The notes under the pieces were generated by a model, which saw only the letters and a program-made list of their open reading frames with translations, was not told the DNA's origin and did not search any database. A DNA stretch of 64,000 nucleotides. It comes from Minisyncoccota bacterium (GTDB lineage Bacteria > Patescibacteriota > Minisyncoccia > Phycocordibacterales > JABAAK01). The number at the start of each line of letters is the position of its first letter. The first letter of the stretch is position 1. Shown here piece after piece: positions 20,191-64,000 of the stretch. The translations under genes were made by a program, and so were the position numbers. The stretch covers positions 595,896 to 659,895 of the forward strand of contig OY764332.1 of NCBI GenBank assembly GCA_963668425.1. The letters run 5' to 3'.

Positions 20191-20229
20191 TGCTGAAGTA
20201 GGCAAAAATTACATGTATATACCAAAAAC

Positions 20230-20262: not shown

Positions 20263-20313
20263 TATTTCTTCGGCTCTATCTCAATGATGTAATAGAAACT
20301 ATCTTTCTACGAT

Positions 20314-44139: not shown

Positions 44140-44171
44140 TTCACATCTTTGAATGTGCTATTAACATAACA

Positions 44172-45392: not shown

Positions 45393-45424
45393 GCGTTAGC
45401 ACTTGTTGCACAGATAATAATGTC

Positions 45425-45637: not shown

Positions 45638-45757
45638 ATTGAAAAAAGAACGTATATTTGTTAATGTGTACAGAGATGTATTCTATACAGCCCCAGTGTG
45701 CCACAGTATTAGATGTTTTAATTGATATGCTTGTATTACCGTGTGTTGTCCATGGTA

Positions 45758-46723: not shown

Positions 46724-46737
46724 ATGACTATATTACT

Positions 46738-48021: not shown

Positions 48022-48059
48022 AGTACCCTTTTACTATACCATAGTAAGGTATGTGCATT

Positions 48060-49187: not shown

Positions 49188-49193
49188 ACTGCC

Positions 49194-49991: not shown

Positions 49992-50025
49992 ACAACAGTA
50001 GTATACACCGTACGTGAAAATATAC

Positions 50026-51144: not shown

Positions 51145-51297
51145 GGCGTGACAAATGTGTTGTTGGCAAAGAAACAACAAAAGAAATCATAGTAGTATAC
51201 CAGCATCCTTGTTTTTCAGCATGTTGGTTATCAACAGGTGTTTAGCGGTATTGTCTCTTGCATACGTGCATGATGTATATAGAGCTTATATATATTT

Positions 51298-53334
51298 CTA
51301 TTGATTGAGAGATTCCAAATGTCGAATTTCATCTCGTACTAGTGCCGCTGTCTCAAAATCCAATTCAGCAACTGCGTTTGCCATTTGTCGTTCTTTCTCG
51401 CGGATGGTTTTTTTCGGTGCCTTGCGATACTGCTCAATATCAAACTCAGCAAGCGTGGTAATAGTTTTTGCCCTCCTCTCCTCTAATTCTTCAGTGATAT
51501 CTTTGATATTTTTAATAACTGTTTTTGGTGTGATGTTGTGTTTTTTATTATGGGCGATTTGTAATTTTCGCCGTCGCTCGGTTTTCTCCATTGCCTTCTG
51601 TAGCGAATTTGTCAGCTTATCAGCGTATAGTATTACTCGTCCGTCAACATTTCTTGCTGCTCTGCCGATGGTTTGGATGAGTGAAGTTTCTGATCGTAAG
51701 AAACCTTCTTTATCAGCATCCAAAATTGCTACCAGTGTTACTTCTGGCAGGTCTAATCCCTCGCGTAGTAAATTTACTCCGACCAATACATCAAAGCTAC
51801 CTTTGCGAAATTTGGTGAGCAGTTCAATCCGCTCAATAGTTTTTACCTCACTGTGTAGGTACTCTGCCCGCATTCCTGCGTCAGCCAGATATTCTGCCAA
51901 TTCTTCTGCTGTTTTTTTTGTTAATGTTGTTACCAATACCCGACCACCTTTTGTAATATCTTTTTGTGCCTCACTGATAAAATCTTTCACTTGTCCGATG
52001 TACTTGTCAGTGCCGGTTACTGGATGTACTGTAGTCAGTGGATCTGTTAACCCAGTTGGACGAATAACTTGTTCCACAATATATCCATTGCTATGTTTTT
52101 GTTCGTATGCATCGGGAGTTGCGGATGTATATATGACCCAGCCAACCCGTTTTTCAAATTCTTCGAATGTTAATGGACGATTGTCTCGTGCGGATGGTAG
52201 TCGAAAGCCGTGTTCTATTAAGGTGTCTTTTCGTGACCGGTCCCCTGCGTACATTCCGCCGATTTGTGGCACTGTTACATGTGATTCGTCAATTATTGTC
52301 AGGAAGTTTGGTTTGCCATCTGCATCTTTTGGAAAATATGAAAGTAGGGTGTATGGCGGGATACCTGCCGCACGACGATCAAAATGCCGTGAGTAATTCT
52401 CAATTCCATTGCAATATCCGATTTCCTTTATCAGTGCCAAATCTTGTGCGGTGCGCCTTCGCAGACGTTCATACTCCAGCACTTTTCCTTGTCTGTCTAG
52501 TTCAGTCAGCCGTTCTTTCATCTCTTGTTCAATGGATGTGATTGCCATTTTTTGCGCTTCTTTGTTTGATACGAAATGCTTTGCTGGAAATAGGAAAAAT
52601 GTGTCAACAGATGTGTTTTCTATTGCACGCGTGAGCGCATTAATTTGTGCAATATTGCTGACAGTGGATCGGTCAAATGAAATACGATAGATGACTTCTT
52701 CGTTTACTGGCATAATCTCAACCGCATCGCTGATAACTCGCACCTTGCCGGGCTGTAACTCGTTAGTTGTCCTTTCAAAGTAGAGTGAAATCGCTTTTCG
52801 GATTAGATCTTCTCGTGTTACTACCGCACCTTTTTCAATTTTCATATGTACTTTCTCGTACTCTTCAGGACTTCCTAATCCATAGATACAAGATACAGAT
52901 GCAACTACAATTACATCATTCCGTGTCAGTAGTGCTTGTGTCGCCGCATGTCGTAGGCGATCAATCTCTCGGTTAACTAGCGCTTCTTTTGCAATATAAG
53001 TGTCAGAGCCAGGTACGTATGCTTCTGGCTGATAGTAGTCATAGTATGAAACAAAGTAATGTACCGGACTGTTTGGGAATAGTTCTTTGTACTCTTGTGC
53101 TAATTGTGCAGCAAGTGTTTTATTGTGTGCAATAACTAAGGTTGGCTTGTTCCATTGTGCGATAACATTTGCCGCGGTGAATGTTTTTCCAGAACCGGTC
53201 ACACCAAGCAGTGTTTGGTGTTGTGCGTTTTTACGCAAGCCCTCTAGTAATGTCTCTATTGCCTTCGGTTGATCTCCTGCAGGTTTTTTATCACTTGTAA
53301 GGACAAACTTATTCTTTGACCTCATACAACTCAA
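51298..53334 (-). CDS. uvrB: Excinuclease ABC subunit B
   Basis: 678 aa; Walker A 'GVTGSGKTFT', helicase motifs, beta-hairpin, C-terminal UVR domain. Confidence 0.9.
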   Translation of the reverse strand: MSCMRSKNKFVLTSDKKPAGDQPKAIETLLEGLRKNAQHQTLLGVTGSGKTFTAANVIAQWNKPTLVIAHNKTLAAQLAQEYKELFPNSPVHYFVSYYDYYQPEAYVPGSDTYIAKEALVNREIDRLRHAATQALLTRNDVIVVASVSCIYGLGSPEEYEKVHMKIEKGAVVTREDLIRKAISLYFERTTNELQPGKVRVISDAVEIMPVNEEVIYRISFDRSTVSNIAQINALTRAIENTSVDTFFLFPAKHFVSNKEAQKMAITSIEQEMKERLTELDRQGKVLEYERLRRRTAQDLALIKEIGYCNGIENYSRHFDRRAAGIPPYTLLSYFPKDADGKPNFLTIIDESHVTVPQIGGMYAGDRSRKDTLIEHGFRLPSARDNRPLTFEEFEKRVGWVIYTSATPDAYEQKHSNGYIVEQVIRPTGLTDPLTTVHPVTGTDKYIGQVKDFISEAQKDITKGGRVLVTTLTKKTAEELAEYLADAGMRAEYLHSEVKTIERIELLTKFRKGSFDVLVGVNLLREGLDLPEVTLVAILDADKEGFLRSETSLIQTIGRAARNVDGRVILYADKLTNSLQKAMEKTERRRKLQIAHNKKHNITPKTVIKNIKDITEELEERRAKTITTLAEFDIEQYRKAPKKTIREKERQMANAVAELDFETAALVRDEIRHLESLNQ

Positions 53335-53857
53335 TCATAAACTGAAGAGTTGTATTTGGTGGGATGTCTCCGGCCTGTTGATTGCCGTAGCCCATCTCAG
53401 GTTTTATGATAACAAGTCGTGTGCCTCCGACACGCATGCCGGTAACTCCTTGTTCAAATCCAGAAATTACTGCACCAGAACCAAGTTGAAATGCAAATGG
53501 TGATTCTTTGTCTAGGTTTTGATCAAAAATAATTTCTTCATTAGTGTTTGGGTCAAGGCGAGTACCAATGTAGCCGACATGTACTGTCTTTGGTGCTTCA
53601 GCGAGTTCTCCATCGCCGATCTGCAGATCAAGAATGGTTACCGGCTCAGATAGATTGTTGAGACCTATACTATTATCACTTTCATTTCTGCTGGCTGTTG
53701 AGCCAGTAGTGTTGACAATATTGCCACCAAAGAAACCTCTTTGCAATACCGTAAACGGAAAGATGTTTGGGAATATCCGACTGCCAAAAATAATAGGGGC
53801 AAATAGTAATAACACCACACCAATCGCGATGTATTTTTTTATGTGCTCTTGCTTCAT
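53309..53857 (-). CDS. FKBP-type peptidyl-prolyl cis-trans isomerase with N-terminal TM anchor
   Basis: 182 aa; 'VHVGYIGTRLDPNTNEEIIFDQ…FAFQLGSGAVISGFEQGVTGMRVGG…IPPNTTLQFMIEL'. Confidence 0.7.
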   Translation of the reverse strand: MKQEHIKKYIAIGVVLLLFAPIIFGSRIFPNIFPFTVLQRGFFGGNIVNTTGSTASRNESDNSIGLNNLSEPVTILDLQIGDGELAEAPKTVHVGYIGTRLDPNTNEEIIFDQNLDKESPFAFQLGSGAVISGFEQGVTGMRVGGTRLVIIKPEMGYGNQQAGDIPPNTTLQFMIELYEVKE

Positions 53858-53927
53858 ACGTTAGTAGTATACTACAGTATTTTTCTTGTCAAGTAAATTA
53901 TGTTATCCTGTAGATATATAGTATAAC

Positions 53928-54002
53928 GGCCCTATCGTCTAGCGGCTAGGACACAGCCCTCTCACGGCTGAGACCGGGGTTCAATTCCCCGTAGGGTCAC
54001 CA
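53928..54002 (+). tRNA. tRNA-Glu (anticodon CUC), CCA encoded
   Basis: Acceptor GGCCCTA/TAGGGTC, anticodon stem CAGCC/GGCTG loop CTCTCAC, T-arm GGGGTTCAATTCCCC, 3' ACCA. Confidence 0.8.
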
Positions 54003-54115
54003 ATCAGCCAATATACCTCACTCTGTGTTTTTGTATTCGCCTCCGGTCTCAGCCGATCACGGCTGCCAGTAGTCAGGTTTTTGTCAGAGCCAAAAACACG
54101 GGGGTTTGATTCCAC

Positions 54116-54192
54116 GGTACAGCGTTAGAACTGAAGAAACATTTTGAAAATACCTCGTCCGTTCCACCCTCCTCTTAACTTAACCCCAACCC
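54116..54192. repeat. Left terminal inverted repeat of island
   Basis: Reverse complement aligns with 61201-61278 (…GGTTAAGTTAAGAGGAGGGTGGAACGGACGAGGTATTTTCAAAATGTTTCTTCAGTTCTAACGCTGTACC). Confidence 0.8.
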
Positions 54193-54296
54193 TTATGCTC
54201 GGTGCGACTGTTTCGTTTCGTTTTCCCATCTTCGTTCTTTTGCTCTGCTCTGTAAAAGTCCGAGGGAGGGAATGCTTATGTTAAATCACCTTTTCC

Positions 54297-55082
54297 TTAA
54301 ATTCTCTTCCGTGTTCCTCCTATTCTCCTCCTTGCAATATTTACATACTCACTGTCCCTCTCTATTCCCACCCATTGACATCCACATTGTTTAGCAACAC
54401 ACGCCGTCGTCCCGCTTCCCAAAAACGGATCTAAAACAATATCTTCCTTGTTTGCACTCGCAAGAATAATCCGCCGCAGCATTTCCTCAGGTTTTTGTGT
54501 TGGATGTAGCGCCTTTCCATCGTCGCCCCGTAACCGTTCATCCCCTTGCACAAGCGGCAATTCCCACACATCACGCATTTGCTTTACTTTTCCATTTTTC
54601 TGTCTTTCAGGGTTAATTTCTTTCACTTTTTCGTAATTAAAAGTCCACCCCTTCCCTTTGACTGCCCATATAATAAATTCTGTGGAATGTGTAAAAACTC
54701 GTCTCGTCATGTTCGGCATAGCATTTGTCTTATGCCAGGTAATTACATTGTTTATCTTGAATCCAATCTGTTTTATTGCAGTCATGACCTCGCTAATATT
54801 GTGATAACTGCAGGAGATATAAAATGAACCAGTGTCTTTTAATACTCGATTACAAGCACCGATCCATTGACGGGTAAATTGCACATATTCTGGTACGGTC
54901 ATTTTATCCCAGTGTGCGTCAACCATATACCAATCCCCGCCTGTTTTGTTTCCCTCCCACTTCAAACCATTGCCAGAAAGGTTGTACGGCGGATCCGCAA
55001 AAATTAAATCAATTGTTTGTTCATTAATTTTTTTATTCAAAATCTCTACACAATCACCATTGTAAATAATATTTGTTTTCAT
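54297..55082 (-). CDS. DNA methyltransferase, beta-class (DPPY then FxGxG), M2 of M-R-M operon
   Basis: 261 aa; 'IFADPPYNLSG' N-terminal, 'LDPFLGSGTTACVA' C-terminal; 4-nt overlap with upstream REase. Confidence 0.85.
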   Translation of the reverse strand: MKTNIIYNGDCVEILNKKINEQTIDLIFADPPYNLSGNGLKWEGNKTGGDWYMVDAHWDKMTVPEYVQFTRQWIGACNRVLKDTGSFYISCSYHNISEVMTAIKQIGFKINNVITWHKTNAMPNMTRRVFTHSTEFIIWAVKGKGWTFNYEKVKEINPERQKNGKVKQMRDVWELPLVQGDERLRGDDGKALHPTQKPEEMLRRIILASANKEDIVLDPFLGSGTTACVAKQCGCQWVGIERDSEYVNIARRRIGGTRKRI

Positions 55083-56908
55083 GTTGTTTTTTCAGAAGTG
55101 AGTTTCTTGCCCCACGAAGCGATAACAGTCGGGACAGATTCCAACCATTCATTTGAACTTTTCGACTTCTTTGATAGTGCGACAACTTCATCATAAAGAG
55201 ACATAATGTCCGCATGATGCAGAAAAGCATCTTTTACTTTTATTTCAAGAAGGATGTTTAGTACAGAAATAAATTGGGTAATTGAAAGCGGGATAATTTT
55301 TTGCTTTTTTCCTTCATACTCATATTTAACCGCATTCCAAAATGTATTTACAGTATCTCTATGTAATTGCGGAGCAATAAACAGGCAGTAAGATGGCTTA
55401 TCACTATACATGTTTTCAAAATTTCGTAAGTGTCGCATGATTGGCTGTCCCTCGTTGTACCATTGGTCCCGCCCGGTCAACATGGTAACTTCACATATTG
55501 CATTAAATGTTTCATAAAAACATTCGATGTCTGGCATATTGCCTGGCGCGGTGAAAGTCGGCTCATTATCATCACCAACCGGATAATTCGGCTGTATGTT
55601 TAGTGCATCGTTAAGCGCGGTCAGTCCAAGAGCAGACAATTTTTCAAGCAGTAATGGGCGGTCTTCTTGTTCAAAAATATTTTTCAACAATTCAACATAC
55701 GATGCAACATGTTCTGCGCTCTGCGACTCTCTTTGCACCATTTCATCTTGTAATGTTTTCCTATATGCACGCAATTCTGTAACATATTCTTTCAAAACAC
55801 TATCATCCATCTTTTTATAATCCTCAATTATACGCATTTGTTGCTGCAAATCCTTTTCATGTGTCTGTATATCAGAAATAAGATTGGTAATAATTTCTGT
55901 ATGTTTTGCCCTTGTTTCCCATGGTAGTTGAGGTTGAGATATGTCGGAAATATACTCAAGGTACACTTCCTTTGATTCAAATGATTGTGATTGTGCGGTA
56001 TCGCGCTCAAGCAATGATGTAATTTCAACCATTCTTCTCGGCTCAAGATCAACATAGAAACCGCCACCACGAATATACAAATATTTAGTCAGACGAAAAT
56101 ACCGTATCGCATTATCACCATAATCCTTTAGATTGTTCAAAAGAGATTGGACATCTTTATCGTTATCAGTTCCTAAAAATTCAGCAGCAAACTCTTTTCT
56201 GTATTTCTCAAAAAATTTATTCTGTTGCTGCCGTTCTTTTCCTTGAAGATCCGCCCGCAATGTGATAATCTCATTGGTATATTTTTGTACATCACTATAA
56301 TGTACCAAGGTTGGAACAAAAAGAGCAAACTCTTTTTTGCTAATTCCTTTTGCTTTATTCCCATTATACCCCTCCTTTTCATTTATCGCATTAATCAGAT
56401 GTAACATTCCGACAAATGGTTTAATATCATACTCTGCATCCGAAGAGTAGTCATCACTATCAGGATTTGGTATTTGCCATTTCAAAAAACTTCTCAAAAA
56501 CACTTCGCCTAAGTCAAAGTCATCTTGTAAAAACAGCTTCCCTAAATCGGTGACGCATACCTTGCCATCCCGAATGGCGACAAAGCCGAGTTTTCTCAAG
56601 GGATTAATTGACTGCCTGCCGCGCATTGCTGGATCTTCATATTGTTTTCCCAGAAAAATCTTTTCTGCCTCTTTAAATGGGACATCTTTTGAAAAATTAT
56701 CCAATAACTTTACTTGGTTTTTTGAAAGGGTGTTATAAAACTGTGTATTGCCGTAACCGTACAATCTGCTTTGAATTAATAAAATTTGAAACTTTTTTTG
56801 ATTTTCAAAATCCCAGTCCATTCCTTCAAGCTGACTTAACACACCTAGGAAACCCCGTAATCTTTCCGGGCTCCGTAGTGTTGTAGTGATTGACCATGGC
56901 TTTTTCAT
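55079..56908 (-). CDS. Putative type IIS-like restriction endonuclease (uncharacterised about 610-aa protein between two methyltransferases)
   Basis: Start set to ATG 1 nt after upstream methyltransferase stop; tightly coupled on both sides with methyltransferases of different classes, the usual arrangement for asymmetric-site type IIS systems; no family recognisable by eye. Confidence 0.4.
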   Translation of the reverse strand: MKKPWSITTTLRSPERLRGFLGVLSQLEGMDWDFENQKKFQILLIQSRLYGYGNTQFYNTLSKNQVKLLDNFSKDVPFKEAEKIFLGKQYEDPAMRGRQSINPLRKLGFVAIRDGKVCVTDLGKLFLQDDFDLGEVFLRSFLKWQIPNPDSDDYSSDAEYDIKPFVGMLHLINAINEKEGYNGNKAKGISKKEFALFVPTLVHYSDVQKYTNEIITLRADLQGKERQQQNKFFEKYRKEFAAEFLGTDNDKDVQSLLNNLKDYGDNAIRYFRLTKYLYIRGGGFYVDLEPRRMVEITSLLERDTAQSQSFESKEVYLEYISDISQPQLPWETRAKHTEIITNLISDIQTHEKDLQQQMRIIEDYKKMDDSVLKEYVTELRAYRKTLQDEMVQRESQSAEHVASYVELLKNIFEQEDRPLLLEKLSALGLTALNDALNIQPNYPVGDDNEPTFTAPGNMPDIECFYETFNAICEVTMLTGRDQWYNEGQPIMRHLRNFENMYSDKPSYCLFIAPQLHRDTVNTFWNAVKYEYEGKKQKIIPLSITQFISVLNILLEIKVKDAFLHHADIMSLYDEVVALSKKSKSSNEWLESVPTVIASWGKKLTSEKTT

Positions 56909-56909
56909 G

Positions 56910-58127
56910 CTATTTCTTGACTTCGCAATAAAAAATTCTTTCCGCATTATTTTCTCCATCGCTTTTCCCAGTTGTAAATGCCTTGTACCTTTTCTCAAAA
57001 ATCTCAACTGCTCCACGCTTTTTTAAAACTTGTACGATATCCTCATCGTTCATTCGTGCATTTGATCGACCATCTTTTAAATCACCGGTATTGTTATACG
57101 AAAGTAGAATATACTTACAGTTCGCATGCTCAATCAAATCAGCAAAGGCAGATGTTGCATCCTTGAGACAGTATTTACTTTTTATGTGCGAACGATCCAT
57201 TTTTTTAGCAACGCCAAACACATCAGGCTTTTCCCATGTGACCAAATTTTCCAAAAGGTGATATGCATCGGAATACTGCCGAGAGTTATATGGCGGATCA
57301 ATATAAAGTACATCACAAGAGATCTTTCTTATAAGGTCATTTGCATCTTCTCTATATACCTCATTACCTGCATTCTTTCTGTATGACACCTCTGGATTCA
57401 AAAGTTGCACAGGATTTAACATGTCCATCTTCCTCCTAAACGCATCATAGTGACCGACAGTATTTGCCGCACGATCAACTGAGTATAGAAGTGAGCATAG
57501 TAAGATATTTTTTTCATCATCATTTTTCACAACATTCTCTATTTCTTCCCGAATGGCACCAATCTTTTGAGCATTCCTTTTTGAGAAATAGGTTCCACCA
57601 AAATGTTTTGAAAAATAATTTTCTGTTTCATCTGATAATCTATTAAGGTATTTTATTTTTTCTGAAACATTTTCATACATTCCACCATCATCAATATCCA
57701 AAAATGTTCGTAAACACACATAGTTAGCGGAAAGAAAATCATTGGAGATAATTTTTATTTCTCTGGTGTTAAAACTCTCTCCGACAACGCCAGTGCCAGC
57801 AAATATGTCGCAGAAAGAATTCACTTCTTTGCACTTACTGAAGACAATGCTTTTAATAAAATCAATTAGTCTGTACTTATTGCCTAAATACCTCCTGCTT
57901 TGTATCTGAAAATATCCGTCATTTGGCTTTTTTTGTTCAAAATACTTTTTTGTTTTTAGTGATTTAATAAGAGATGCAGTATCAATCCCAGGAACATCAA
58001 AAAGTGCTTGCTGTTCCCTATCTTTGGTGTGCCAAAAACCTTCATCACAGTATCCATCTGTGCATATAAAATTATCCTCATGATTTATACACCGCTCAAC
58101 AATTCTATCTTTTTCATTATTCTTCAT
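56910..58127 (-). CDS. DNA N6-adenine methyltransferase, alpha-class (FxGxG then DPPY), with Cys-rich N-terminal extension, M1 of M-R-M operon
   Basis: 405 aa; 'CDIFAGTGVVGESF' followed by 'VLYIDPPYNSRQY'; N-terminal 'CINHEDNFICTDGYCDEGFWH'. Confidence 0.8.
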   Translation of the reverse strand: MKNNEKDRIVERCINHEDNFICTDGYCDEGFWHTKDREQQALFDVPGIDTASLIKSLKTKKYFEQKKPNDGYFQIQSRRYLGNKYRLIDFIKSIVFSKCKEVNSFCDIFAGTGVVGESFNTREIKIISNDFLSANYVCLRTFLDIDDGGMYENVSEKIKYLNRLSDETENYFSKHFGGTYFSKRNAQKIGAIREEIENVVKNDDEKNILLCSLLYSVDRAANTVGHYDAFRRKMDMLNPVQLLNPEVSYRKNAGNEVYREDANDLIRKISCDVLYIDPPYNSRQYSDAYHLLENLVTWEKPDVFGVAKKMDRSHIKSKYCLKDATSAFADLIEHANCKYILLSYNNTGDLKDGRSNARMNDEDIVQVLKKRGAVEIFEKRYKAFTTGKSDGENNAERIFYCEVKK

Positions 58128-58166
58128 ATGTATTTAGTATATCTCACAAATGGGAAATCCTTATTT

Positions 58167-59330
58167 TCAAAGTAATTCCCTCTGTCTTCTTACCTTATTC
58201 CATTTCTCAACATCTTCAAATTCATCGTTTTCAGCATAATCATATATTATGCCTACGCTATGCCTTGCCCTTGTAATTGCAATATAAAATTTACAACGGG
58301 TAGTATCCTTTAATTGATTTTCGTGATCTTTAATCCATTTTTTAATATCGTCCGTTGGATAAATAAGAACTTTGTCAAATGTCAAACCTTTTGATTTTCC
58401 ATAATTTATTGCTGGATATTCTGACAATTTTAGTTTCAAGATTTGCGGCGAGTGTGTATTGATGTAATCACACTCATCATCACTTCTGACCAAAAAAACG
58501 CCTTCGTGATCTGTTACATGTTTTCTGCATTTTGCACAGATACAAGGGGTAGAAGATTCATATTGAGGAGGAGGAAAAAGTTTGGATGAAAAATCACAGA
58601 TAGATTGATTATTCCTGTGTGTTCTGTTCAATGTTTCTTGATCTATTACACAACCAAAAGCACAACACTCTGTTTCAATAAATTCTTTAATTTTTCCATT
58701 TTTATATTTTATATTTTTTCTCGCATGACTTGTTAAGTAGGCGACTTGTCTTGGATCACCAACCAATAAAATCCTTGATTGTGTGCCAAGGAGTATTTTT
58801 ATTACCTCTAAATCCCATCCGGCAAGATCCTGCACTTCATCAATAAAAATATGCTGATATATTCTTGAGATTCTATCAATTACTTTTCCGCCTGTTTTGT
58901 CGTTACATTTAAGAATAAACTTTGAAATCTTATCTGAGTATATTTTCCAACCCTCTGTAAAATAGTATTGAGGAAAATCATTCTCTCCCCAATATATCGG
59001 TTTTTCTTTTTTCTTTCTGTTTCTATTTTTACAAGCAGATATTTCTGATGACAAATAAAACCCTATTCTTTTTCCAAATAAACCGTCATTCATTGACCCC
59101 TGATACGGTCTCACACCATGTTGCAAGAGAAAAGAAAACCACGTTTGAACCGTTATGTTTGGCGGTATGTTTCCATTCTTTTCTGTAATTTTTCTTCTAA
59201 TCTCTTGTTCGTTTTCTTCTGTATAAGTAGTAATCAAAATATTCTCTTTCTTAACTTTCAATGCTTCTGTGATAAGATGTGTTGTCTTGCCCGATCCTGC
59301 AACCGCAATTATTAATTTATTTTGATTCAT
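58167..59330 (-). CDS. gajB: GajB-like UvrD/SF1 helicase (short, 387 aa)
   Basis: Walker A 'AVAGSGKTTHL', Walker B 'IFIDEVQDLAGWD', 'VGDPRQ', motif VI 'IAITRARHS'; 14-nt overlap with upstream gajA-like gene. Confidence 0.6.
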   Translation of the reverse strand: MNQNKLIIAVAGSGKTTHLITEALKVKKENILITTYTEENEQEIRRKITEKNGNIPPNITVQTWFSFLLQHGVRPYQGSMNDGLFGKRIGFYLSSEISACKNRNRKKKEKPIYWGENDFPQYYFTEGWKIYSDKISKFILKCNDKTGGKVIDRISRIYQHIFIDEVQDLAGWDLEVIKILLGTQSRILLVGDPRQVAYLTSHARKNIKYKNGKIKEFIETECCAFGCVIDQETLNRTHRNNQSICDFSSKLFPPPQYESSTPCICAKCRKHVTDHEGVFLVRSDDECDYINTHSPQILKLKLSEYPAINYGKSKGLTFDKVLIYPTDDIKKWIKDHENQLKDTTRCKFYIAITRARHSVGIIYDYAENDEFEDVEKWNKVRRQRELL

Positions 59331-60960
59331 GTTCCCATTTAATTGCCTCTAAAATATATTCAGGAAAATTTATGTCTTGATCTGATTCAAATAATTCCAA
59401 CGCACATTTGGTTTTGTTATTTTTCATATGTTCTTCAAGATCTTTGTTGTTCTGATTATCAAGCTTAAAAATACCTGCTAATACATCCAATTGCTTATGA
59501 TTGGCATTTATAATCTGAGGCTCCAATGTCGGCAACTTGTCATTCTTGCTTGCACAGATTTTTATATTTTTTGATTTTTCATAATCTTTGTACTTCTTTT
59601 TAACCTTATTCTCATAATCACCGTCGTTATCGGTCACAACCACCACTGTTTTATTAATCTTATCTGCAATTTCAAGAAATCTTAAAAAAGATGTTCCCAC
59701 AGAAATAACATCAACCTGATCATCAATTGGTGATTTATTTTTTTCCTTCATGTACGCCTTTTGTACTGTTAATTCATCAGACGGACCCTCCACTAAAATA
59801 GCTTTCCTGCAAAGAATCATTCTCAATGTGTCATATCCGGGAAGTTTTTCAAAAAACTTTTGAGTTTCAGGAGTCAAATCATTCATTCTCACTTGATTTA
59901 TGCTATCATCGGGTTCTTTGTTGAGAATAATTAGATTCGCTAAATTAAATTTATTCGCTACAAAATTGCTATGTGTTGAGACTATAGCCTGTTTCTTATT
60001 AGTGTCATCTGTCTTATTATCCTTCAGATGTTTAATTAATTTATTTAGATTTGCGTGTGATAAGTGGTTCTCTGGCTCTTCAAGTAATAATATATTCGCC
60101 TCTTTCGCTTTTTTGTGATTAAGTGCTAATTGAGTTTTGACTAAGGATTGCTCACCTTTCCCAATAAAATCAAAAGGTATGTTGTTCAGATAGGTTTTTA
60201 AGCTTGTTTCCCATGCAGTTTTTGTTGAAACATCGGCTGATAAGGTGATTTTCTTGTTAGATATATTATTCTGACTTAACTTTTCATTTATTTTGTTGAC
60301 GATGTCTTCTTCGGCAAATGAATCTTTAAGCTTTCTATGTGCTTGAGCTATTTTTACTTTTTCACCATCTTCAAGAAGGTCACGAATTATGTGAGATATA
60401 TAAACATCAGATCCATTTTGATAACGACCACTTGTTGAATCTATAAAGGAAGATTTAAATGGTATACTTCGTGGGGTTATGCTCTCCCTTGCAAATGATT
60501 GCCACTCACAGTCATAGTACTCAATCGGCAAAGATTTTAAATCACCATCATCTAAGAGTGCGTCGTGTTCCGATTTGTATCGTTCTTGAAATAAAATCTC
60601 AAATCGTATACCACACCCCTTCTGTCTGGTGGTATTATTATCTCCCTCAAAATTTGCTTTTATCACATCATTATCAATTTCAAAAAACAATTCAATTCTG
60701 ACATGCGGAGGATCCACATTTTCATTTTGATCGGAAATGTATTTTTCCATAACTTCCTTGTTGAAGAGTGCCTCACTATGTCCTGTTCGTATATGTCTAC
60801 CGTGAAACCAGCCAGAAAGTGCAAGATGAACCGCCTCTAAAATTGTAGATTTTCCAGATTCATTATCCCCAACTAATATATTTAAACCCTCATTAAGTTC
60901 CAAAATAAACTCACCTTTGAAACATTTAAAATTTTCAATTACTATCTTTTTCAATCTCAT
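59317..60960 (-). CDS. gajA: GajA-like OLD-family ABC ATPase with C-terminal Toprim nuclease domain
   Basis: 547 aa; Walker A 'GDNESGKSTILEA', Walker B/D-loop 'ILLLEEPENHLS', Toprim 'ILVEGPSDE' and 'VVVVTDNDGDYE'. Confidence 0.7.
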   Translation of the reverse strand: MRLKKIVIENFKCFKGEFILELNEGLNILVGDNESGKSTILEAVHLALSGWFHGRHIRTGHSEALFNKEVMEKYISDQNENVDPPHVRIELFFEIDNDVIKANFEGDNNTTRQKGCGIRFEILFQERYKSEHDALLDDGDLKSLPIEYYDCEWQSFARESITPRSIPFKSSFIDSTSGRYQNGSDVYISHIIRDLLEDGEKVKIAQAHRKLKDSFAEEDIVNKINEKLSQNNISNKKITLSADVSTKTAWETSLKTYLNNIPFDFIGKGEQSLVKTQLALNHKKAKEANILLLEEPENHLSHANLNKLIKHLKDNKTDDTNKKQAIVSTHSNFVANKFNLANLIILNKEPDDSINQVRMNDLTPETQKFFEKLPGYDTLRMILCRKAILVEGPSDELTVQKAYMKEKNKSPIDDQVDVISVGTSFLRFLEIADKINKTVVVVTDNDGDYENKVKKKYKDYEKSKNIKICASKNDKLPTLEPQIINANHKQLDVLAGIFKLDNQNNKDLEEHMKNNKTKCALELFESDQDINFPEYILEAIKWEHESK

Positions 60961-60967
60961 ACCTATT

Positions 60968-61147
60968 ACTTTAATAATGCCAAATGCCTACCTTTCTCAA
61001 TAGCCAGCCAGTTAACGGATAAGCAATAAAAACTGCTATAAGCGCTGGTTTTACTGGTTCATTGAAAATATTCCAAAGCAAGGCAAAAATAACAATGGTG
61101 ATTACTTTATTTACCACGCTTCCTAATGTTGAGTGAAAGTTTTTCAT
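60968..61147 (-). CDS. Unannotated 59-aa two-TM small membrane protein heading the Gabija-like operon
   Basis: Translation by hand of the minus strand: MKNFHSTLGSVVNKVITIVIFALLWNIFNEPVKPALIAVFIAYPLTGWLLRKVGIWHY; stop 8 nt before gajA-like start; below the ORF-track size cut-off. Confidence 0.3.
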
Positions 61148-61200
61148 AAAAACATTTTACCATTATTTGGTTAAGGTGTTTACGGTGCGGTCCGAGCGTA

Positions 61201-61278
61201 GGGGTTGGGTTTAAGTTAAGAGGAAGGTGGAACGGATGAGGTGTTTTCAAAATGTTTCTTCGGCTCTAACGCTGTACC
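61201..61278. repeat. Right terminal inverted repeat of island
   Basis: See TIR-L; abuts DR2 at 61280. Confidence 0.8.
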
Positions 61279-61380
61279 ATAAGGTCACCAATCAGCCAGC
61301 AGATACCGTATTTCATGCCTCTGTATTTATCTCTGATTTTAGAAATTTAGGCATTTCTCTGGTGGTACACTATAAACATC

Positions 61381-61454
61381 GGGCGATTAGCTCAGTTGGC
61401 TAGAGCGCTCCCTTGACGTGGGAGAGGTCACAGGTTCAAGTCCTGTATCGCCCA
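61381..61454 (+). tRNA. tRNA-Val (anticodon GAC)
   Basis: Acceptor GGGCGAT/ATCGCCC, D-arm GCTCAGTTGGCTAGAGC, anticodon stem CTCCC/GGGAG loop TTGACGT, T-arm GGTTCAAGTCC. Confidence 0.8.
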
Positions 61455-61710
61455 CCTAAAAACAGCATATTTGCTGGTGTTTGTGAGGTATCTATTTTGG
61501 CATATGTATCCTTGAGATGACTTGTCTATTGCCAAAATATCCTTATTTATAGGGCTTTTCTAAAGATATTGCCATAGGTAGCATATTATAATATATAGTT
61601 GACATTTTGACAAAAATATGTAATAATAAGTGTAGATTATACAAGGAATTACCTTGTAAACTACTCTTTTAATTACTTACTATATTACATTAATAAAAAT
61701 AACTAATATT

Positions 61711-62484
61711 ATGAATTACACAAAAAAAATAATTACTAGCGTGTTAATAGTTGTAATTGCTGTATTACTAGCAGTAGCAACCATTCACACATCAAGTGCT
61801 TACGCACAGGATGGAGAATGTACTTTCTATGTCTCTTCTATAGAGCGTGACGGTTCAAAAATTTCTCTACATCCTTCAACTTGTACTGCTGCGGATGAGC
61901 AACTTTTGCCAAATTCTGTTTCTCTGCGTTACAAAATCAATTTGTACGCTGCTGTTGATACAGTAAACTATGACTCACTAGAAATAATGGGTTCAGAAGA
62001 GAGAGTAGTACAAATGGAAAAAGTAGTAACAGATTCCGATCTTGGAATTTATCATTATGAAGCAACAACCCCTACGATTGATAACAGTTACTGGGCAACA
62101 AGTTTTGTTGAGGGAAGCGTATATGTTCTTGCTACTACTCTTGTTAATAACGTTCAAGGGTCTACAGCAATGCTTTTGGATTGTGATACGAGCGAATGTG
62201 AGCTTTATGTAAAGTATGTTGAGTCCTATACTCACACCTCTACTGGCACCACTGTTGTTGACACCCCTACTGTTGTTGTTGATACTCCTGTTGTTGATAC
62301 TCCTGTTGTTGATACTCCTGTCGCTGACACCGCTGATACTGAGGTCAAGAGAAACAAGAGAGCAAGTCAAGGATCTGGTGCGATACGCCCTGGTTACCTT
62401 ACCTGCCGTGTTGCAGGCCGAAAGAACTGTGGATCAGTAAATACAGATGTATGGCAAACAATCGGACTATACATAGGAATGTAA
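61711..62484 (+). CDS. Secreted tandem-repeat protein, paralog of 20314-21120
   Basis: 257 aa; signal peptide …SSAYA-Q; 15-bp tandem repeats at about 62250-62330 (TPVVD units); shared C-terminal 'GAIRPGYLTC…RKNCGSVNTD'. Confidence 0.5.
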   Translation: MNYTKKIITSVLIVVIAVLLAVATIHTSSAYAQDGECTFYVSSIERDGSKISLHPSTCTAADEQLLPNSVSLRYKINLYAAVDTVNYDSLEIMGSEERVVQMEKVVTDSDLGIYHYEATTPTIDNSYWATSFVEGSVYVLATTLVNNVQGSTAMLLDCDTSECELYVKYVESYTHTSTGTTVVDTPTVVVDTPVVDTPVVDTPVADTADTEVKRNKRASQGSGAIRPGYLTCRVAGRKNCGSVNTDVWQTIGLYIGM

Positions 62485-62537
62485 ATCGTAGAAAGATAGT
62501 TTCTATTACATCATTGAGATAGAGCCGAAGAAATAAA

Positions 62538-62574
62538 CACACCCCGCTGTTTTTAAACAGCGGGGTGTGTTTTG
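62538..62574. terminator. Bidirectional terminator, identical to the one at 20230-20262
   Basis: ACACCCCGCTG-ttttaaa-CAGCGGGGTGTG + TTTTG. Confidence 0.7.
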
Positions 62575-62691
62575 TATGAAAGTAAGGTACATCTCTATGC
62601 TTATCTAATTTCCAAAATAATGTCATAGTTCACTCAAATCACCCCTATATACATTTTATTACGAGAAATGTTTGTTCAATTTTGTGCTGTG

Positions 62692-62769
62692 TGGCGCAGC
62701 GGACGGGAGTTGAACCCGCGACCTCTCGCGTGACAGGCGAGCGCTCTAACCAAGCTGAGCTACCGCTGC
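62692..62769 (-). tRNA. tRNA-Asp (anticodon GUC), CCA encoded
   Basis: Reverse complement: acceptor GCAGCGG/CCGCTGC, anticodon stem CTCGC/GCGAG loop CTGTCAC, T-arm GGTTCAACTCC, 3' GCCA. Confidence 0.75.
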
Positions 62770-62798
62770 AATGTAGATAGTGTAGCATGGGCGGATGA

Positions 62799-63647
62799 TT
62801 ATACAAAAAACATGTATTGCACCGTATACATCACATCAATAAATGATATGCCCGTAAAGAGTACTAGGAAATATGCCACTGCCATACAGGGGATGAGGGG
62901 TATTTGCATACCTTTTTGTACCGTTACCTTGCCTTTTGTTGCCAGTTGATACAGTATGTAGCCAAGCAACACTACTAAGCCAACCCAAAACGAGAGCATA
63001 AATACAGAAACTGCACTTATGAGTGATGGTAACAGGAAGCCGAGTGATATGGCAACTTTTGCATCACCTAACCCTATTGCTCTCCCCGATGAAAAGAGCC
63101 AGAGTAAGAAGAATGGCAATGCTAATATTACTCCGCTTAATACCGCTCCTATCCCGCCGGTTACTATGCCAACGATGAGAGCTGCATATGCAAATACCAG
63201 TGATAAATGTTCCGGCACCTCCATTGTTTCAATGTCTTGCAGTACAATCGGAACTAAAAATATCGCAGAAAGCAGTGCGACACCGGCAATATATGCTGAA
63301 CCACCCATCAGAGCATACAAAAAAGCGATAACGAATAGCAACCCCATCACAATCTCAGATGCAAGGTGATATATCGGAATGGATTTTTTACAGGCGTAAC
63401 ATCTGCCCCACAGTATCACATATGAGACAATCGGTAGTAATTCGTACCAGCAGAGTTCTTTTTTACAGCTTTGGCATTTTGATCGTCCACGTACCACTTT
63501 TTTCCAGGATGCTCGGACTCTTGAGACATCCATGAAGCTTCCTATACATGCTCCAAATAGAAATACTAACCCTGAAAAACAAGTGAGAAATAGTATGTAG
63601 TAATGAGCAAATTGCATATTTGAAGTGTACCATTGTAAAATTAGCAT
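62799..63647 (-). CDS. pilD: Prepilin peptidase PilD (A24 family) with N-terminal Zn-ribbon
   Basis: CxxC…CxxC N-terminal (CQSCKK…CYACKK), catalytic Asp regions 'DIETMEVP' and 'GLGDAKV', polytopic. Confidence 0.75.
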   Translation of the reverse strand: MLILQWYTSNMQFAHYYILFLTCFSGLVFLFGACIGSFMDVSRVRASWKKVVRGRSKCQSCKKELCWYELLPIVSYVILWGRCYACKKSIPIYHLASEIVMGLLFVIAFLYALMGGSAYIAGVALLSAIFLVPIVLQDIETMEVPEHLSLVFAYAALIVGIVTGGIGAVLSGVILALPFFLLWLFSSGRAIGLGDAKVAISLGFLLPSLISAVSVFMLSFWVGLVVLLGYILYQLATKGKVTVQKGMQIPLIPCMAVAYFLVLFTGISFIDVMYTVQYMFFV

Positions 63648-63721
63648 ATACTTTGTGGTGTGTATTTTTTGTTTTTCTGATATACTATAGGTAGATTGTT
63701 ATCATTATTTTGGAGGTGGAA

Positions 63722-64000
63722 AATGGGAGTTGTAATTAGTGGTGCCAGAAATGAGGAGAAAATAATTTTCTCTTGTGATCATGGGCAGTGCTCCAGAAGG
63801 ACAATGAGAAAGGTGTGTTTTCATTGGTATGATAGGCGGACCGGGGAAACGTATAGAAAAGTTCGTCGCTTGAGGAGGCCACTTGCTTATTGGGCAAAGG
63901 TTTTGCGTAAACCCAGGAGAAGAAACATGACAGCGTTTTTTCTTTGTGGGCGTGAAATTGAGTGGCCGGAAAAGATTGAAGTGTTTTGTAAGGAGCATTA
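63722..64000 (+). CDS. Cys/His-rich small protein, 3'-partial (runs off window end)
   Basis: Strong SD GGAGGTG 6 nt upstream of ATG; MGVVISGARNEEKIIFSCDHGQCSRR…FLCGREIEWPEKIEVFCKEH; preferred over antisense ORF 63705-63998. Confidence 0.3.

What the first reader, a model, noticed from the sequence alone, without database searches (positions are those of the whole stretch)
53928..61298. About 7.3 kb recombinase-less defence island inserted at tRNA-Glu, with both direct repeats and about 77-bp terminal inverted repeats
The 3' end of tRNA-Glu (TAGGGTCACCAATCAGCCA, 53992-54010) recurs as TAAGGTCACCAATCAGCCA at 61280-61298. Immediately inside these direct repeats, 54116-54192 and 61201-61278 are about 90% identical in inverted orientation. 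The enclosed cargo is entirely minus-strand and purely defensive: M-R-M restriction-modification, a Gabija-like gajA/gajB pair and a small TM ORF. It contains no integrase or transposase. Between DR1 and TIR-L (54011-54115) there are tRNA-Glu-derived fragments. The first, 'cgggggtttgattccacggtacagcg', mimics the T-arm/acceptor 3' half. The second, 'ccggtctcagccgatcacggctg', contains inverted and direct pieces of the anticodon arm. These fragments suggest an earlier integration scar. A direct repeat combined with long TIRs and no recombinase is unusual. It suggests a non-autonomous element mobilised in trans, or a decayed integrative element with distinctive ends. Chromosomal genes resume on both sides: the FKBP/uvrB block on the left and tRNA-Val on the right.
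Basis: seen in the sequence. Interest (0 to 1): 0.75.

Follow-up and report, generated by a model that had tools for sequence, protein, structure and literature searches.

The report
Defence island in tRNA-Glu repeat hotspot
A 7.2-kb block of anti-phage genes (a restriction-modification system plus Gabija) with no recombinase gene sits inside a short array of tRNA-Glu-derived repeats, a site where related tiny-genome (CPR) bacteria carry different defence cassettes; the island is real and strain-specific, but the reported direct repeats pre-date it, and its inverted ends are two copies of an end sequence shared with other such islands.

Summary
tRNA-Glu(CTC) lies at 53928-54002. A 22-nt direct repeat (20/22) lies at 53989-54010 and 61277-61298. 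An 87-nt inverted repeat (91%) lies at 54116-54202 and 61192-61278. The cargo is M-R-M (AlwI family), GajB/GajA and a 58-aa ORF, with no recombinase.

A relative (L024) lacks the island. Homology to it stops at 54116 and resumes at 61282, so the inverted repeats mark the boundaries. The direct repeat was not made by the insertion. L024 already carries four copies of it, as members of a tandem array of ~126-nt tRNA-Glu-derived units.

The presence/absence difference lies inside a diverged tract of at least 14 kb, next to 6.4 kb of 100% identity. This points to exchange by homologous recombination. Four other relatives hold other defence cassettes in the same array, none with a recombinase.

The island is a mosaic. 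Its R-M cassette recurs at other tRNA sites at 81-87% nt identity, and its Gabija block elsewhere at 80%. The inverted-repeat arms are copies of a noncoding end module found once per island elsewhere.

A second tRNA-linked R-M island in the window keeps a serine-recombinase pseudogene.

Verdict: a decayed integrative island in a tRNA hotspot. It is a new variant of a known kind, of moderate interest.

The parts
53928..54002 (+). tRNA-Glu(CTC), intact; left anchor of the hotspot
   Evidence: ARAGORN; Rfam tRNA, 61.1 bits
54003..54115 (+). One tRNA-Glu-derived repeat unit (landing pad). It comprises a spacer (54003-54042); an inverted copy of the anticodon-stem 3' strand plus variable loop (54043-54054); an anticodon-arm-like hairpin (54050-54065); the near-invariant hairpin CAGGTTTTTGTCAGAGCCAAAAAC (54074-54097); and a T-arm 5' half (54100-54113) that is cut by the island.
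   Evidence: Same unit occurs as 3.x tandem copies in island-free L024 and in 9 other genomes; 14-unit alignment
54116..54202 (+). Left arm of the inverted repeat (IR-L): the outer 87 nt of the island-end module, reading inward
   Evidence: I1. Homology to L024 ends at 54116. Outer 26 nt matches the L034 island end. Homologous to the L039 end module.
54189..54296 (+). Conserved noncoding inner segment of the end module, lying 3' of the R-M operon
   Evidence: Aligns with L037 12660-12774 at 77%, with L039 and with window island 2 at 11986-12091
54297..55082 (-). N4/N6 DNA methyltransferase (M2 of the type IIS-like R-M system)
   Evidence: PF01555, E 1e-62; PADLOC MTase_II, E 1.9e-85
55079..57016 (-). 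AlwI-family restriction (or nicking) endonuclease (ORF from GTG; the identical database protein is 609 aa, which puts the likely true start near 56908)
   Evidence: PF09491, E 7.8e-88; PADLOC REase_II 'nicking endonuclease' model, E 9.4e-143; P0187 609 aa, 100% identity
56910..58127 (-). D12-class N6-adenine methyltransferase (M1)
   Evidence: PF02086, E 2.3e-32; PADLOC MTase_II, E 3.9e-113
54215..58222 (-). R-M cassette block shared with other CPR genomes at other tRNA sites
   Evidence: 87% nt identity to L037/L038 (next to tRNA-Ser) and 81% to L039 (between tRNA-Ile and tRNA-Glu(TTC))
58167..59330 (-). GajB (UvrD-like helicase)
   Evidence: PADLOC GajB, E 2.5e-133; PF00580
59317..60960 (-). 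GajA (OLD-family ATPase plus TOPRIM nuclease)
   Evidence: PADLOC GajA, E 6.3e-198; PF13175 and PF20469
58197..61020 (-). Gabija block shared at 80% nt identity with unrelated defence islands
   Evidence: BLASTN to L028/L029; junction alignment
60971..61147 (-). 58-aa ORF with two hydrophobic segments; doubtful gene
   Evidence: Translation; no family hit. Its 3' third is homologous to noncoding DNA upstream of gajA in L028.
61154..61182 (-). Promoter-like site (TAAACA, 17 nt, TG-TAAAAT) facing the Gabija operon, inside the inner extension of the right end module
   Evidence: a consensus match only
61167..61278 (-). Right end module. The IR-R arm is 61192-61278; a 24-nt inner extension (61167-61191) is absent from IR-L but present in L039.
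   Evidence: I1; L039 alignment, 62.5% over 144 nt, E 8e-6; alignment A3; match to the L034 end, 0/2000 shuffles
61277..61298 (+).
   Evidence: D10; alignment with L024 units. Homology to L024 resumes at 61282.
61381..61456 (+). tRNA-Val(GAC), right anchor of the hotspot
   Evidence: the same tRNA pair brackets the hotspot in L001, L024, L025, L026, L034, L035 and L036
49731..64000 (.). Diverged (recombinant) tract containing the island, relative to strain L024
   Evidence: 0 differences at 43309-49730; then 1.8% at 49731-54116 and about 4% at 61282-64000

Best explanation
This is a decayed, recombinase-less, mosaic defence island: a Gabija cassette joined to a type IIS-like M-R-M cassette. 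It occupies a lineage-wide cassette hotspot between tRNA-Glu(CTC) and tRNA-Val in a Kaiserbacteria-like CPR bacterium.

The hotspot is a tandem array of tRNA-Glu-derived units. The island splits one unit between the T-arm and the acceptor 3' strand (gattcc|cc gt|agggtcacca).

Its 'terminal inverted repeats' are two inverted copies of a family-specific noncoding end module. That module also occurs, as a single copy, at one end of other tRNA-linked defence islands.

Inferred: the module is what remains of the recombination site of a site-specific integrative element, most likely of the large-serine-recombinase type, which gives clean insertion with no long duplication and with inverted half-sites at the ends. 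The recombinase gene has been lost.

Shown: between present-day strains the island is gained or lost as part of a larger segment, by homologous recombination in the conserved flanks. No island-encoded recombinase is needed for that.
For: 1. An empty site exists. In L024, homology runs without interruption to 54116 and resumes at 61282, and the two flanks are adjacent parts of one repeat unit.

2. The direct repeat pre-exists as array members.

3. There is a recombination tract. The two strains show 0 differences over 6.4 kb, then 1.8-4% divergence from 49731 across the island to the window end.

4. The site is a hotspot. L025 has an EcoO109I R-M system, L001/L032 an MTase plus an unknown ORF, and L034 an M78 peptidase cassette. 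L024, L026, L035 and L036 are empty. No recombinase lies inside any of the inserted cassettes; the only recombinase-family hit in these loci is a weak rve fragment in L036, about 3 kb beyond tRNA-Val and outside the hotspot.

5. The island is a mosaic. The R-M block is 81-87% nt identical to cassettes next to tRNA-Ser (L037/L038) and next to tRNA-Ile/tRNA-Glu(TTC) (L039). The Gabija block is 80% identical to L028/L029. L037 keeps 26 nt of the gajB 3' end.

6. The IR arms are homologous to a single-copy end module in L039 (144 nt, E 8e-6) and L034 (26-29 nt, 0/2000 shuffles). In L034 the module sits at the same junction type, next to an acceptor remnant.

7. A second tRNA-linked R-M island in the window (11.9-14.1 kb) shares the inner segment of the module. 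It also retains a C-terminal pseudogene fragment of a large serine recombinase.

8. The junction is clean. No duplication longer than about 2-4 nt flanks the arms.
Against: No recombinase remnant lies in this island; tblastn with the serine-recombinase hits finds only island 2.

The serine-recombinase link rests on a neighbouring island that shares only the inner part of the module.

Arms of 87 nt are far longer than the ~25-bp half-sites of known serine-integrase attP sites (my own knowledge).

The central dinucleotide cannot be read consistently from the two junctions.

The other islands carry the module at one end only. The inverted pair could therefore be a secondary duplication, or the meeting of two cassettes, rather than a primary feature.

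The right junction (module next to ATARGG(A)TCACC and a similar spacer) is shared by L034 and the window. It may be ancestral to the locus rather than the result of an independent integration.

No circular or excised form has been seen.
Confidence: 0.55

Rival explanations
1. It is a non-autonomous cargo transposon. The 87-nt arms are transposase-binding terminal inverted repeats, and the element is moved in trans by a transposase encoded elsewhere, with a preference for the T-arm hairpin of the tRNA-Glu-derived units.
For: The arms coincide with the island boundaries. The outermost 26-29 nt are the best-conserved part and recur at an island end in L034. The cargo encodes no recombinase.
Against: There is no target-site duplication. 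There is no third copy in the window, in 39 related loci, in IMG/VR or in JGI metagenomes. No transposase was found among about 36 other ORFs in the window. L034 and L039 have the module at one end only. IR-L looks like a deletion derivative of a ~480-nt module, not a defined terminus. The strain difference lies inside a homologous-recombination tract.
Confidence: 0.12
2. It is a classical tRNA-integrated island. The 22-nt repeat (tRNA-Glu 3' end plus ATCAGCCA) is the att core of a tyrosine-integrase element spanning 54011-61276, and the integrase has been lost.
For: The 22-nt repeat is real. The L039 end module is followed by a similar CACCAAAACAGCCA even though it lies at a different tRNA locus. 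The unit has an attR-like layout: an inverted half-site, a loop, then a displaced tRNA 3' half.
Against: The island-free strain already has four copies of the core. It also shares the 106 nt between the first repeat and IR-L at 98-99% identity, so that stretch is host DNA and not element DNA. No integrase or remnant of one is present.
Confidence: 0.13
3. It is a pure replacement island with no site-specific step at any time. Cassettes are swapped by transformation and homologous recombination between conserved tRNA genes, units and shared noncoding modules. The inverted repeat is then an incidental inverted duplication, or a regulatory boundary (terminator/promoter) sequence.
For: The recombination tract. 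Different cargo in the same slot in different genomes. The same cassettes at different tRNA slots, carrying flanking noncoding DNA with them. A promoter-like site and terminator-like hairpins inside the module. Type IV pilus/competence-type genes in the window.
Against: The two arm termini abut the two halves of one T-arm/acceptor with no loss or gain of more than about 4 nt, which is hard to obtain without a site-specific event. There are recurrent breakpoints at the same nucleotide of the unit in unrelated genomes: AGGT| in L025 and L033, and gattcc| in the window and L034. A serine-recombinase pseudogene lies in island 2.
Confidence: 0.2

Closest known systems
Core defence hotspots, and 'replacement' versus 'additive' defence islands flanked by core genes and a tRNA (P. 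aeruginosa cDHS1/2; PMC10250203, read)
   Same: A fixed chromosomal slot bounded by conserved genes and tRNA genes. Unrelated defence cassettes occupy it in different strains. It is often not assignable to any mobile element, and transfer by homologous recombination in the flanks has been proposed.
   Different: Here the slot is only 0.2-7 kb, in a ~0.7-Mb CPR genome. It consists of a tandem array of tRNA-derived hairpin units with recurrent nucleotide-level breakpoints. The cassettes carry a shared noncoding end module.
tRNA-targeting integrative islands with a T-loop or anticodon-loop sublocation (Williams 2002, NAR 30:866; seen only as reference 26 of PMC10250203; the content is from my own knowledge)
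   Same: Insertion is within the symmetric T-arm of a tRNA(-like) sequence. Partial tRNA 3' copies accumulate next to the gene.
   Different: There is no integrase. The target is a non-functional tRNA-derived unit, not the gene itself. The flanking tRNA-end repeat is not created by the insertion.
Large-serine-recombinase integrative elements (phiC31, Bxb1, A118 type; my own knowledge)
   Same: Clean insertion without a long duplication. The element ends (P' and P half-sites) are inverted repeats of each other. A serine-recombinase pseudogene exists in the sister island of the same window.
   Different: No recombinase gene or remnant lies in this island. The arms are 87 nt rather than ~25 bp. 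I know of no serine integrase that targets tRNA T-arms.
Neisseria minimal mobile elements (my own knowledge)
   Same: Recombinase-less cassettes, often R-M systems, are exchanged between conserved flanking genes by transformation and homologous recombination.
   Different: Those elements have no tRNA-derived landing array and no shared end module or inverted ends.
Integron cassette arrays, CALINs, and pdif modules of Acinetobacter plasmids (my own knowledge)
   Same: Recombinase-less cassettes are bounded by structured or inverted recombination sites and are moved by a recombinase encoded elsewhere.
   Different: No intI gene and no attC or dif-like consensus was seen here. This is an analogy only.
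Gabija (GajA/GajB) and AlwI-family type IIS R-M systems
   Same: The cargo genes match the family models over their full length.
   Different: Nothing unusual was seen in the cargo. GajB, at 387 aa, is at the short end of the family: its best PADLOC matches are the 365-369-position GajB models.

Membership tests
Gabija defence system | GajA: an N-terminal ABC-type ATPase plus a C-terminal TOPRIM (OLD-family) nuclease | tested here: met
   PF13175/PF13304 plus PF20469; PADLOC GajA PDLC00102, E 6.3e-198, covering 1-542 of 547 aa
Gabija defence system | GajB: a UvrD-like helicase encoded immediately downstream of gajA | tested here: met
   PF00580/PF13361; PADLOC GajB PDLC00148, E 2.5e-133; the genes overlap by 14 nt
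Gabija defence system | Confers phage resistance | not testable with these tools
   Needs an experiment
Type IIS R-M system (AlwI / PleI / N.BstNBI family) | Endonuclease with the RE_AlwI domain | tested here: met
   PF09491, E 7.8e-88, full-length; the best PADLOC model is labelled 'nicking endonuclease', E 9.4e-143
Type IIS R-M system (AlwI / PleI / N.BstNBI family) | Two methyltransferases, one per strand of an asymmetric site | tested here: met
   PF01555 and PF02086 MTases flank R in one operon. The same M-R-M order occurs in L037, L038 and L039.
Type IIS R-M system (AlwI / PleI / N.BstNBI family) | Recognition sequence, and whether the enzyme cuts both strands or only nicks | not testable with these tools
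   Needs biochemistry or methylome data
Classical tRNA-integrated genomic island (tyrosine integrase) | Integrase gene at one end | tested here: not met
   No integrase family hit in any of the six ORFs
Classical tRNA-integrated genomic island (tyrosine integrase) | Direct repeats of the tRNA 3' end created by integration and bounding the element | tested here: not met
   The repeat exists, but it is present four times in the island-free strain, and host homology continues 106 nt inside the first repeat
Classical tRNA-integrated genomic island (tyrosine integrase) | Absent from close relatives and compositionally deviant | tested here: met
   Absent in L024; GC 0.32-0.38 against 0.42
Non-autonomous TIR transposon (MITE or cargo transposon) | Terminal inverted repeats at the exact element ends | tested here: met
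Non-autonomous TIR transposon (MITE or cargo transposon) | Target-site duplication flanking the TIRs | tested here: not met
   The flanks gattccac and ataaggtc are adjacent parts of one unit; nothing is duplicated
Non-autonomous TIR transposon (MITE or cargo transposon) | Multiple copies, and an autonomous partner with matching ends | tested here: inconclusive
   None in the window, in 39 loci, in IMG/VR or in JGI metagenomes. The rest of the ~0.7-Mb source genome could not be read.
Large-serine-recombinase integrative element | Resolvase + Recombinase + Zn-ribbon recombinase gene in the element | tested here: not met
   Absent from this island. A C-terminal pseudogene fragment exists only in island 2 at 13772-14141.
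Large-serine-recombinase integrative element | Insertion with only a ~2-bp shared core, and ends that are inverted half-sites | tested here: inconclusive
   The clean junction and inverted ends fit, but the central dinucleotide cannot be assigned consistently and the arms are much longer than known half-sites
Core defence hotspot / replacement island | The same conserved flanks with different defence cargo, or none, in related genomes | tested here: met
   Of 9 related tRNA-Glu(CTC) loci beside the window (L001/L032 and L026/L027 are duplicate samplings of the same genomes), 3 distinct cargo types plus empty states were seen
Core defence hotspot / replacement island | Exchange by homologous recombination in the flanks | tested here: met
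   An abrupt switch from 0 differences per 6.4 kb to 1.8-4% divergence across the island
Integron / CALIN | intI integrase and attC sites with the R''/L''/L'/R' structure | not tested
   No integrase-family hit among about 42 ORFs scanned in the window. No attC model was run.

The most novel reading that the evidence does not exclude
The tRNA-Glu-derived unit array and the shared ~135-480-nt end module may together form a dedicated cassette-capture platform in CPR bacteria, working like an integron. The units include the 24-nt hairpin CAGGTTTTTGTCAGAGCCAAAAAC, which is almost invariant among genomes whose FKBP proteins are only 55-65% identical. Under this reading, recombinase-less defence cassettes carrying the end module are inserted, in either orientation, into the T-arm or hairpin of a unit by a recombinase encoded elsewhere, perhaps a large serine recombinase. 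The host keeps the array because it supplies defence genes to a minimal genome.
Probability: 0.12. Interest if true: 0.8.

Novelty: new variant of a known kind. Interest (0 to 1): 0.5.

Why it matters
CPR/Patescibacteria have genomes of about 0.7 Mb, and to my knowledge few mobile elements have been described in them. How they acquire and exchange anti-phage systems is poorly understood.

This locus shows a compact slot that recurs across the lineage, built from tRNA-derived repeats. R-M, Gabija and M78-type cassettes come and go in it without carrying a recombinase. The same cassettes, with the same noncoding end sequence, reappear at other tRNA genes in other CPR genomes.

If the end module and the invariant hairpin turn out to be recombination sites, this would define a new cassette-exchange system. 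If they do not, the locus is still a clean example of defence-island turnover driven by homologous recombination in a minimal genome.

For annotation practice, it is a warning. A tRNA-end direct repeat bracketing an island is not proof that the repeat was made by that island.

Tried and rejected
1. The IR arms as the 3' ends of a gene. The arms read inward as GTALE[L/P]KKHFENTSSVPPSS*, and 4 of the 5 differences between the arms in that frame are synonymous. Rejected: the homologous L039 module has indels and does not keep the frame, and degenerate-codon pattern scans found nothing.

2. Further IR copies. Pattern scans of IMG/VR and of JGI metagenomes gave 0 hits. BLAST against the window and all fetched loci gave no third copy.

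3. Retrieving the source genome. GajA (P0067) and R (P0187) are 100% identical to proteins on a 696,550-nt contig. Exact look-ups of FKBP and GajA returned nothing, so the rest of the genome could not be searched.

4. The closest GajA relatives as carriers of the same element. They are only 76% identical at the protein level and sit in unrelated defence islands without the IR.

5. Known RNA families in the IR or the unit. Rfam at E<=1 hits only the true tRNAs.

6. An inverted copy of the end motif at the left end of the L034 island, or similarity between that left end and IR-L. Not significant.

7. Serine-recombinase remnants in island 1 or in relatives' islands. tblastn finds none. A scan of viral contigs for the P0313-type recombinase gave nothing.

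8. A strand fold of the end module failed on a length limit and was not repeated.

Full report
**1. Checking the observation**

- tRNA-Glu(CTC) is at 53928-54002 and tRNA-Val(GAC) at 61381-61456.
- The tRNA 3' end plus 8 nt recurs at 61277-61298: 22 nt, 20 identical (D10).
- The inverted repeat is 87 nt, not ~77. Its arms are 54116-54202 and 61192-61278, 91% complementary, and seven of the eight differences are transitions.
- A 33-nt core of the repeat occurs exactly twice in the window, against none expected by chance. BLAST finds no third copy.
- The six ORFs between the arms are all on the minus strand: N4/N6 MTase, AlwI-family endonuclease, D12 MTase, GajB, GajA and a 58-aa ORF with two hydrophobic segments. 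None matches a recombinase family.
- GC drops from ~0.42 to 0.32-0.38 inside.

**2. Host and empty site**

The adjacent FKBP gene places the window in a Kaiserbacteria-like CPR bacterium; the closest named genome is 61% identical at the protein level. GajA and R are 100% identical to proteins on a 696,550-nt contig that I could not retrieve.

A metagenome contig, L024, has a 97% identical FKBP and the same gene order but no island.

In L024, tRNA-Glu is followed by three tandem ~126-nt units and a truncated fourth, then tRNA-Val. Each unit contains:

- a spacer beginning ATCAGCCA;
- an inverted copy of the tRNA's anticodon-stem 3' strand and variable loop;
- an anticodon-arm-like hairpin;
- the hairpin CAGGTTTTTGTCAGAGCCAAAAAC;
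- a T-arm, acceptor 3' strand and CCA.

Window-to-L024 homology runs without interruption to 54116, the first base of IR-L, and resumes at 61282. The two flanks are neighbouring parts of one unit: gattcc|cc gt|agggtcacca.

Two conclusions follow. The island is a genuine insertion/deletion polymorphism whose limits are the outer ends of the inverted repeat.

The truncated last unit of L024 lacks exactly the 11 nt (attccccgtag) that span the window's insertion point. This could be a deletion scar.

**3. How the two strains came to differ**

The difference profile is abrupt:

| Window region | Differences from L024 |
|---|---|
| 43309-49730 (6.4 kb) | 0 |
| 49731-54116 | 79 (1.8%, rising to 2.6% near the island) |
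| 61282-64000 | about 4% (102 differences in 2.6 kb) |

The island therefore lies inside a segment of at least 14 kb that one of the two strains received from a relative 2-4% diverged. Its gain or loss between these strains was an allelic replacement by homologous recombination. That needs no island-encoded recombinase. This step is shown.

**4. The locus is a hotspot**

The same uvrB-FKBP-tRNA-Glu ... tRNA-Val frame, with the same kind of unit array, is present in every relative fetched.

| Locus | State |
|---|---|
| L026, L035, L036 | Empty, with 1, 1.5 and 5 units |
| L025 | N4/N6 MTase + EcoO109I endonuclease |
| L001 / L032 | MTase plus an unknown ORF |
| L034 | M78 peptidase plus a small ORF |

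No recombinase lies inside any of these inserted cassettes. The only recombinase-family hit in these loci is a weak rve fragment in L036, about 3 kb beyond tRNA-Val and outside the hotspot.

A scan for the hairpin in JGI metagenomes found the same unit behind tRNA-Glu(TTC) in another lineage (L030, L031, L033; also L039). There the unit's anticodon-like loop carries TTC.

Across 14 units from 10 loci, the 24-nt hairpin is almost invariant, while the anticodon-like stem covaries with the resident tRNA. Spacers differ completely between genomes but are homogenised within a genome.

Breakpoints recur at the nucleotide level. Cargo starts after ...CAGTAGTYAGGT| in both L025 and L033. A T-arm is cut at gattcc| in both the window and L034.

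**5. The island is a mosaic**

The R-M block (54215-58222) is 87% nt identical to a cassette directly downstream of tRNA-Ser(GGA) in L037/L038. It is 81% identical to one lying between tRNA-Ile and tRNA-Glu(TTC) in L039.

The Gabija block (58197-61020) is 80% identical to Gabija loci in unrelated defence islands, L028/L029. The two blocks abut at about 58197.

L037 keeps 26 nt of the gajB 3' end upstream of its R-M cassette. That cassette therefore descends from a Gabija-R-M composite like this one.

**6. What the inverted repeat is**

In L039, about 480 nt of noncoding DNA follows the R-M operon. Its outer ~135 nt aligns with IR-R (144 nt, E 8e-6). The alignment includes a 24-nt inner extension (GTAAACACCTTMACCAA) that IR-L lacks, and a flank resembling CACCAATCAGCCA.

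In L034, the M78 island ends with a 26-29-nt match to the outer terminus of both arms (0 of 2000 shuffles reach the score). It sits at the same junction type, directly before ATAGGGATCACC.

By my reading of the aligned sequences, IR-L corresponds to the L039 module with about 330 nt deleted between GCTCSG microhomologies (inference). The segment just inside IR-L is conserved in L037, L039 and a second island of the window.

The 'TIRs' are therefore two inverted copies of a family-specific noncoding end module. Elsewhere this module occurs once per island and accompanies at least four cargo types. The two copies differ by 9%, yet the island is missing from a strain that is identical over the adjacent 6.4 kb. 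The pair therefore pre-dates the island's arrival in this strain.

The module has no Rfam match. It contains a promoter-like site facing the Gabija operon and a terminator-like hairpin. The idea that it encodes protein was rejected.

**7. A recombinase remnant next door**

The window holds a second tRNA-linked R-M island between tRNA-Gln and two tandem tRNA-Leu copies. It consists of an MTase plus an EcoO109I endonuclease, at 12088-13738. This cassette is 84.7% nt identical to the one sitting in the tRNA-Glu hotspot of L025.

Island 2 is flanked by 117-nt direct repeats that begin with a tRNA-Leu 3' end broken in the T-loop. Its left edge carries the inner segment of the module.

Its right edge (13772-14141) is a frameshifted C-terminal fragment of a large serine recombinase. 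The best hits have E 7e-20 to 1e-8. They include a 512-aa protein with Resolvase, Recombinase and Zn-ribbon domains, matched at residues 375-469.

No intact recombinase or transposase was found among about 36 other ORFs of the window. tblastn finds no serine-recombinase remnant in island 1 or in the relatives' islands.

**8. Most likely mechanism**

Shown:
- The island is strain-specific and bounded by the inverted repeat.
- It sits in a pre-existing tRNA-derived array that is a lineage-wide hotspot.
- It moves between strains by homologous recombination.
- Its parts and its end module circulate among tRNA-linked sites of several CPR genomes.

Inferred:
- The original insertion into the T-arm was site-specific. 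The two arm termini meet the two halves of one T-arm with no more than about 4 nt gained or lost, and breakpoints recur.
- It was most likely made by a large serine recombinase that has since been lost. That chemistry leaves no long duplication and places inverted half-sites at the element ends, and a decayed gene of this type survives in the sister island.

Weak points:
- The arms are much longer than known half-sites.
- The central dinucleotide cannot be assigned.
- Relatives have only one module copy.
- The right-hand junction may be ancestral to the locus rather than newly formed.

I give the combined explanation 0.55. The rivals are: purely recombination-driven replacement with an incidental inverted duplication (0.20); a tyrosine-integrase island with the 22-nt repeat as its core (0.13); and a non-autonomous TIR transposon (0.12).

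**9. Comparison and novelty**

The cargo is ordinary Gabija plus an AlwI-family type IIS-like R-M system.

The setting is closest to the core defence hotspots and replacement islands described next to tRNA genes in Pseudomonas, for which transfer through conserved flanks was proposed (PMC10250203). From my own knowledge, it also resembles the Neisseria minimal mobile elements and tRNA T-loop integration.

Three features are unusual:
- the landing pad, a tandem array of tRNA-Glu-derived hairpin units with a nearly invariant 24-mer;
- a shared noncoding end module on otherwise unrelated cassettes;
- two copies of that module forming 87-nt inverted ends.

I found no description of these in two literature searches, which is weak evidence of absence.

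I rate the finding a new variant of a known kind, with interest 0.5. The boldest reading not excluded is an integron-like cassette-capture platform in CPR bacteria, at about 0.12 probability.

Noticed in passing
window 11478-14912: A second tRNA-linked R-M island. After tRNA-Gln (11478-11549) comes an MTase plus an EcoO109I endonuclease (about 12100-13737). This cassette is 84.7% nt identical to the one in the tRNA-Glu hotspot of L025. It is flanked by 117-nt direct repeats (11868-11984, 14125-14240, 14474-14590) that begin with a tRNA-Leu 3' end broken in the T-loop, and it lies next to two tandem tRNA-Leu(GAG) copies inside a 350-nt tandem repeat.
   Followed up: partly
window 13772-14141 (+): A frameshifted C-terminal pseudogene fragment of a large serine recombinase. 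It matches residues 375-469 of a 512-aa protein carrying Resolvase, Recombinase and Zn-ribbon domains. It is the only recombinase trace found in the window.
   Followed up: yes
window 54074-54097; also L024, L025, L026, L001, L033, L035, L036, L039, L034: The 24-nt hairpin CAGGTTTTTGTCAGAGCCAAAAAC occupies the variable-loop position of tRNA-Glu-derived units. It is almost invariant across genomes whose FKBP proteins are only 55-65% identical, and it follows both tRNA-Glu(CTC) and tRNA-Glu(TTC). Its function is unknown: it could be a protein-binding site, a recombination site or an RNA element.
   Followed up: partly
L034 9800-9960 (minus strand): A second, disrupted tRNA-Glu copy lies upstream of the intact one. 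It has a full 5' half and anticodon arm, then two copies of the hairpin in the variable-loop position, then a T-arm 5' half broken at ggttcgattcc|. This is the same position as the window's left junction. It suggests the units derive from a tRNA-Glu gene that carried an insert in its variable loop.
   Followed up: partly
L033 1812-3110 and L034 8320-9430: The same M78 (ImmA/IrrE-like) peptidase cassette, including about 130 nt of upstream noncoding DNA that ends at the same nucleotide (GGTRCGTGRATGTG...), sits in opposite orientations. One copy is in a tRNA-Glu(TTC) array and the other in a tRNA-Glu(CTC) array of different lineages.
   Followed up: partly
window 62578-62681 versus L024 7377-8205: Another indel between the two near-identical strains, next to tRNA-Asp. 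L024 has about 830 extra nt holding a 182-aa ORF with no family hit; the window lacks it.
   Followed up: no
window 61711-62484 and 20219-21241: The 257-aa repeat-rich ORF right of tRNA-Val (15-nt tandem repeats at 62247-62327) appears to have an inverted partial paralogue at about 20.2-21.2 kb. This rests on L024's orthologue of it matching window 20219-20566 at 87.6% over 348 nt, and on a 14-nt word shared between 20265-20278 and 62520-62533; no direct self-comparison was run.
   Followed up: no
window 16374-17994 and 29612-30430: Further restriction-related genes lie outside the island: an Mrr_cat protein and a PD-(D/E)XK nuclease (16374-17994), and a solitary D12-class MTase (29612-30430). 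The solitary MTase sits between a DNA ligase/unknown ORF and a release-factor gene. The 64-kb window is unusually rich in R-M genes.
   Followed up: no
window 49731: A sharp left breakpoint of a recombination tract relative to strain L024: 100% identity over the preceding 6.4 kb, then 1.8-4% divergence to the window end.
   Followed up: yes
L037 12700-14620 versus L038 12663-12702: Two contigs from the same sample carry the same R-M cassette next to tRNA-Ser. They differ by about 1.9 kb (56-aa and 461-aa ORFs) inserted between the R-M cassette and a SocA/Panacea-domain gene. This looks like another small cassette polymorphism.
   Followed up: no
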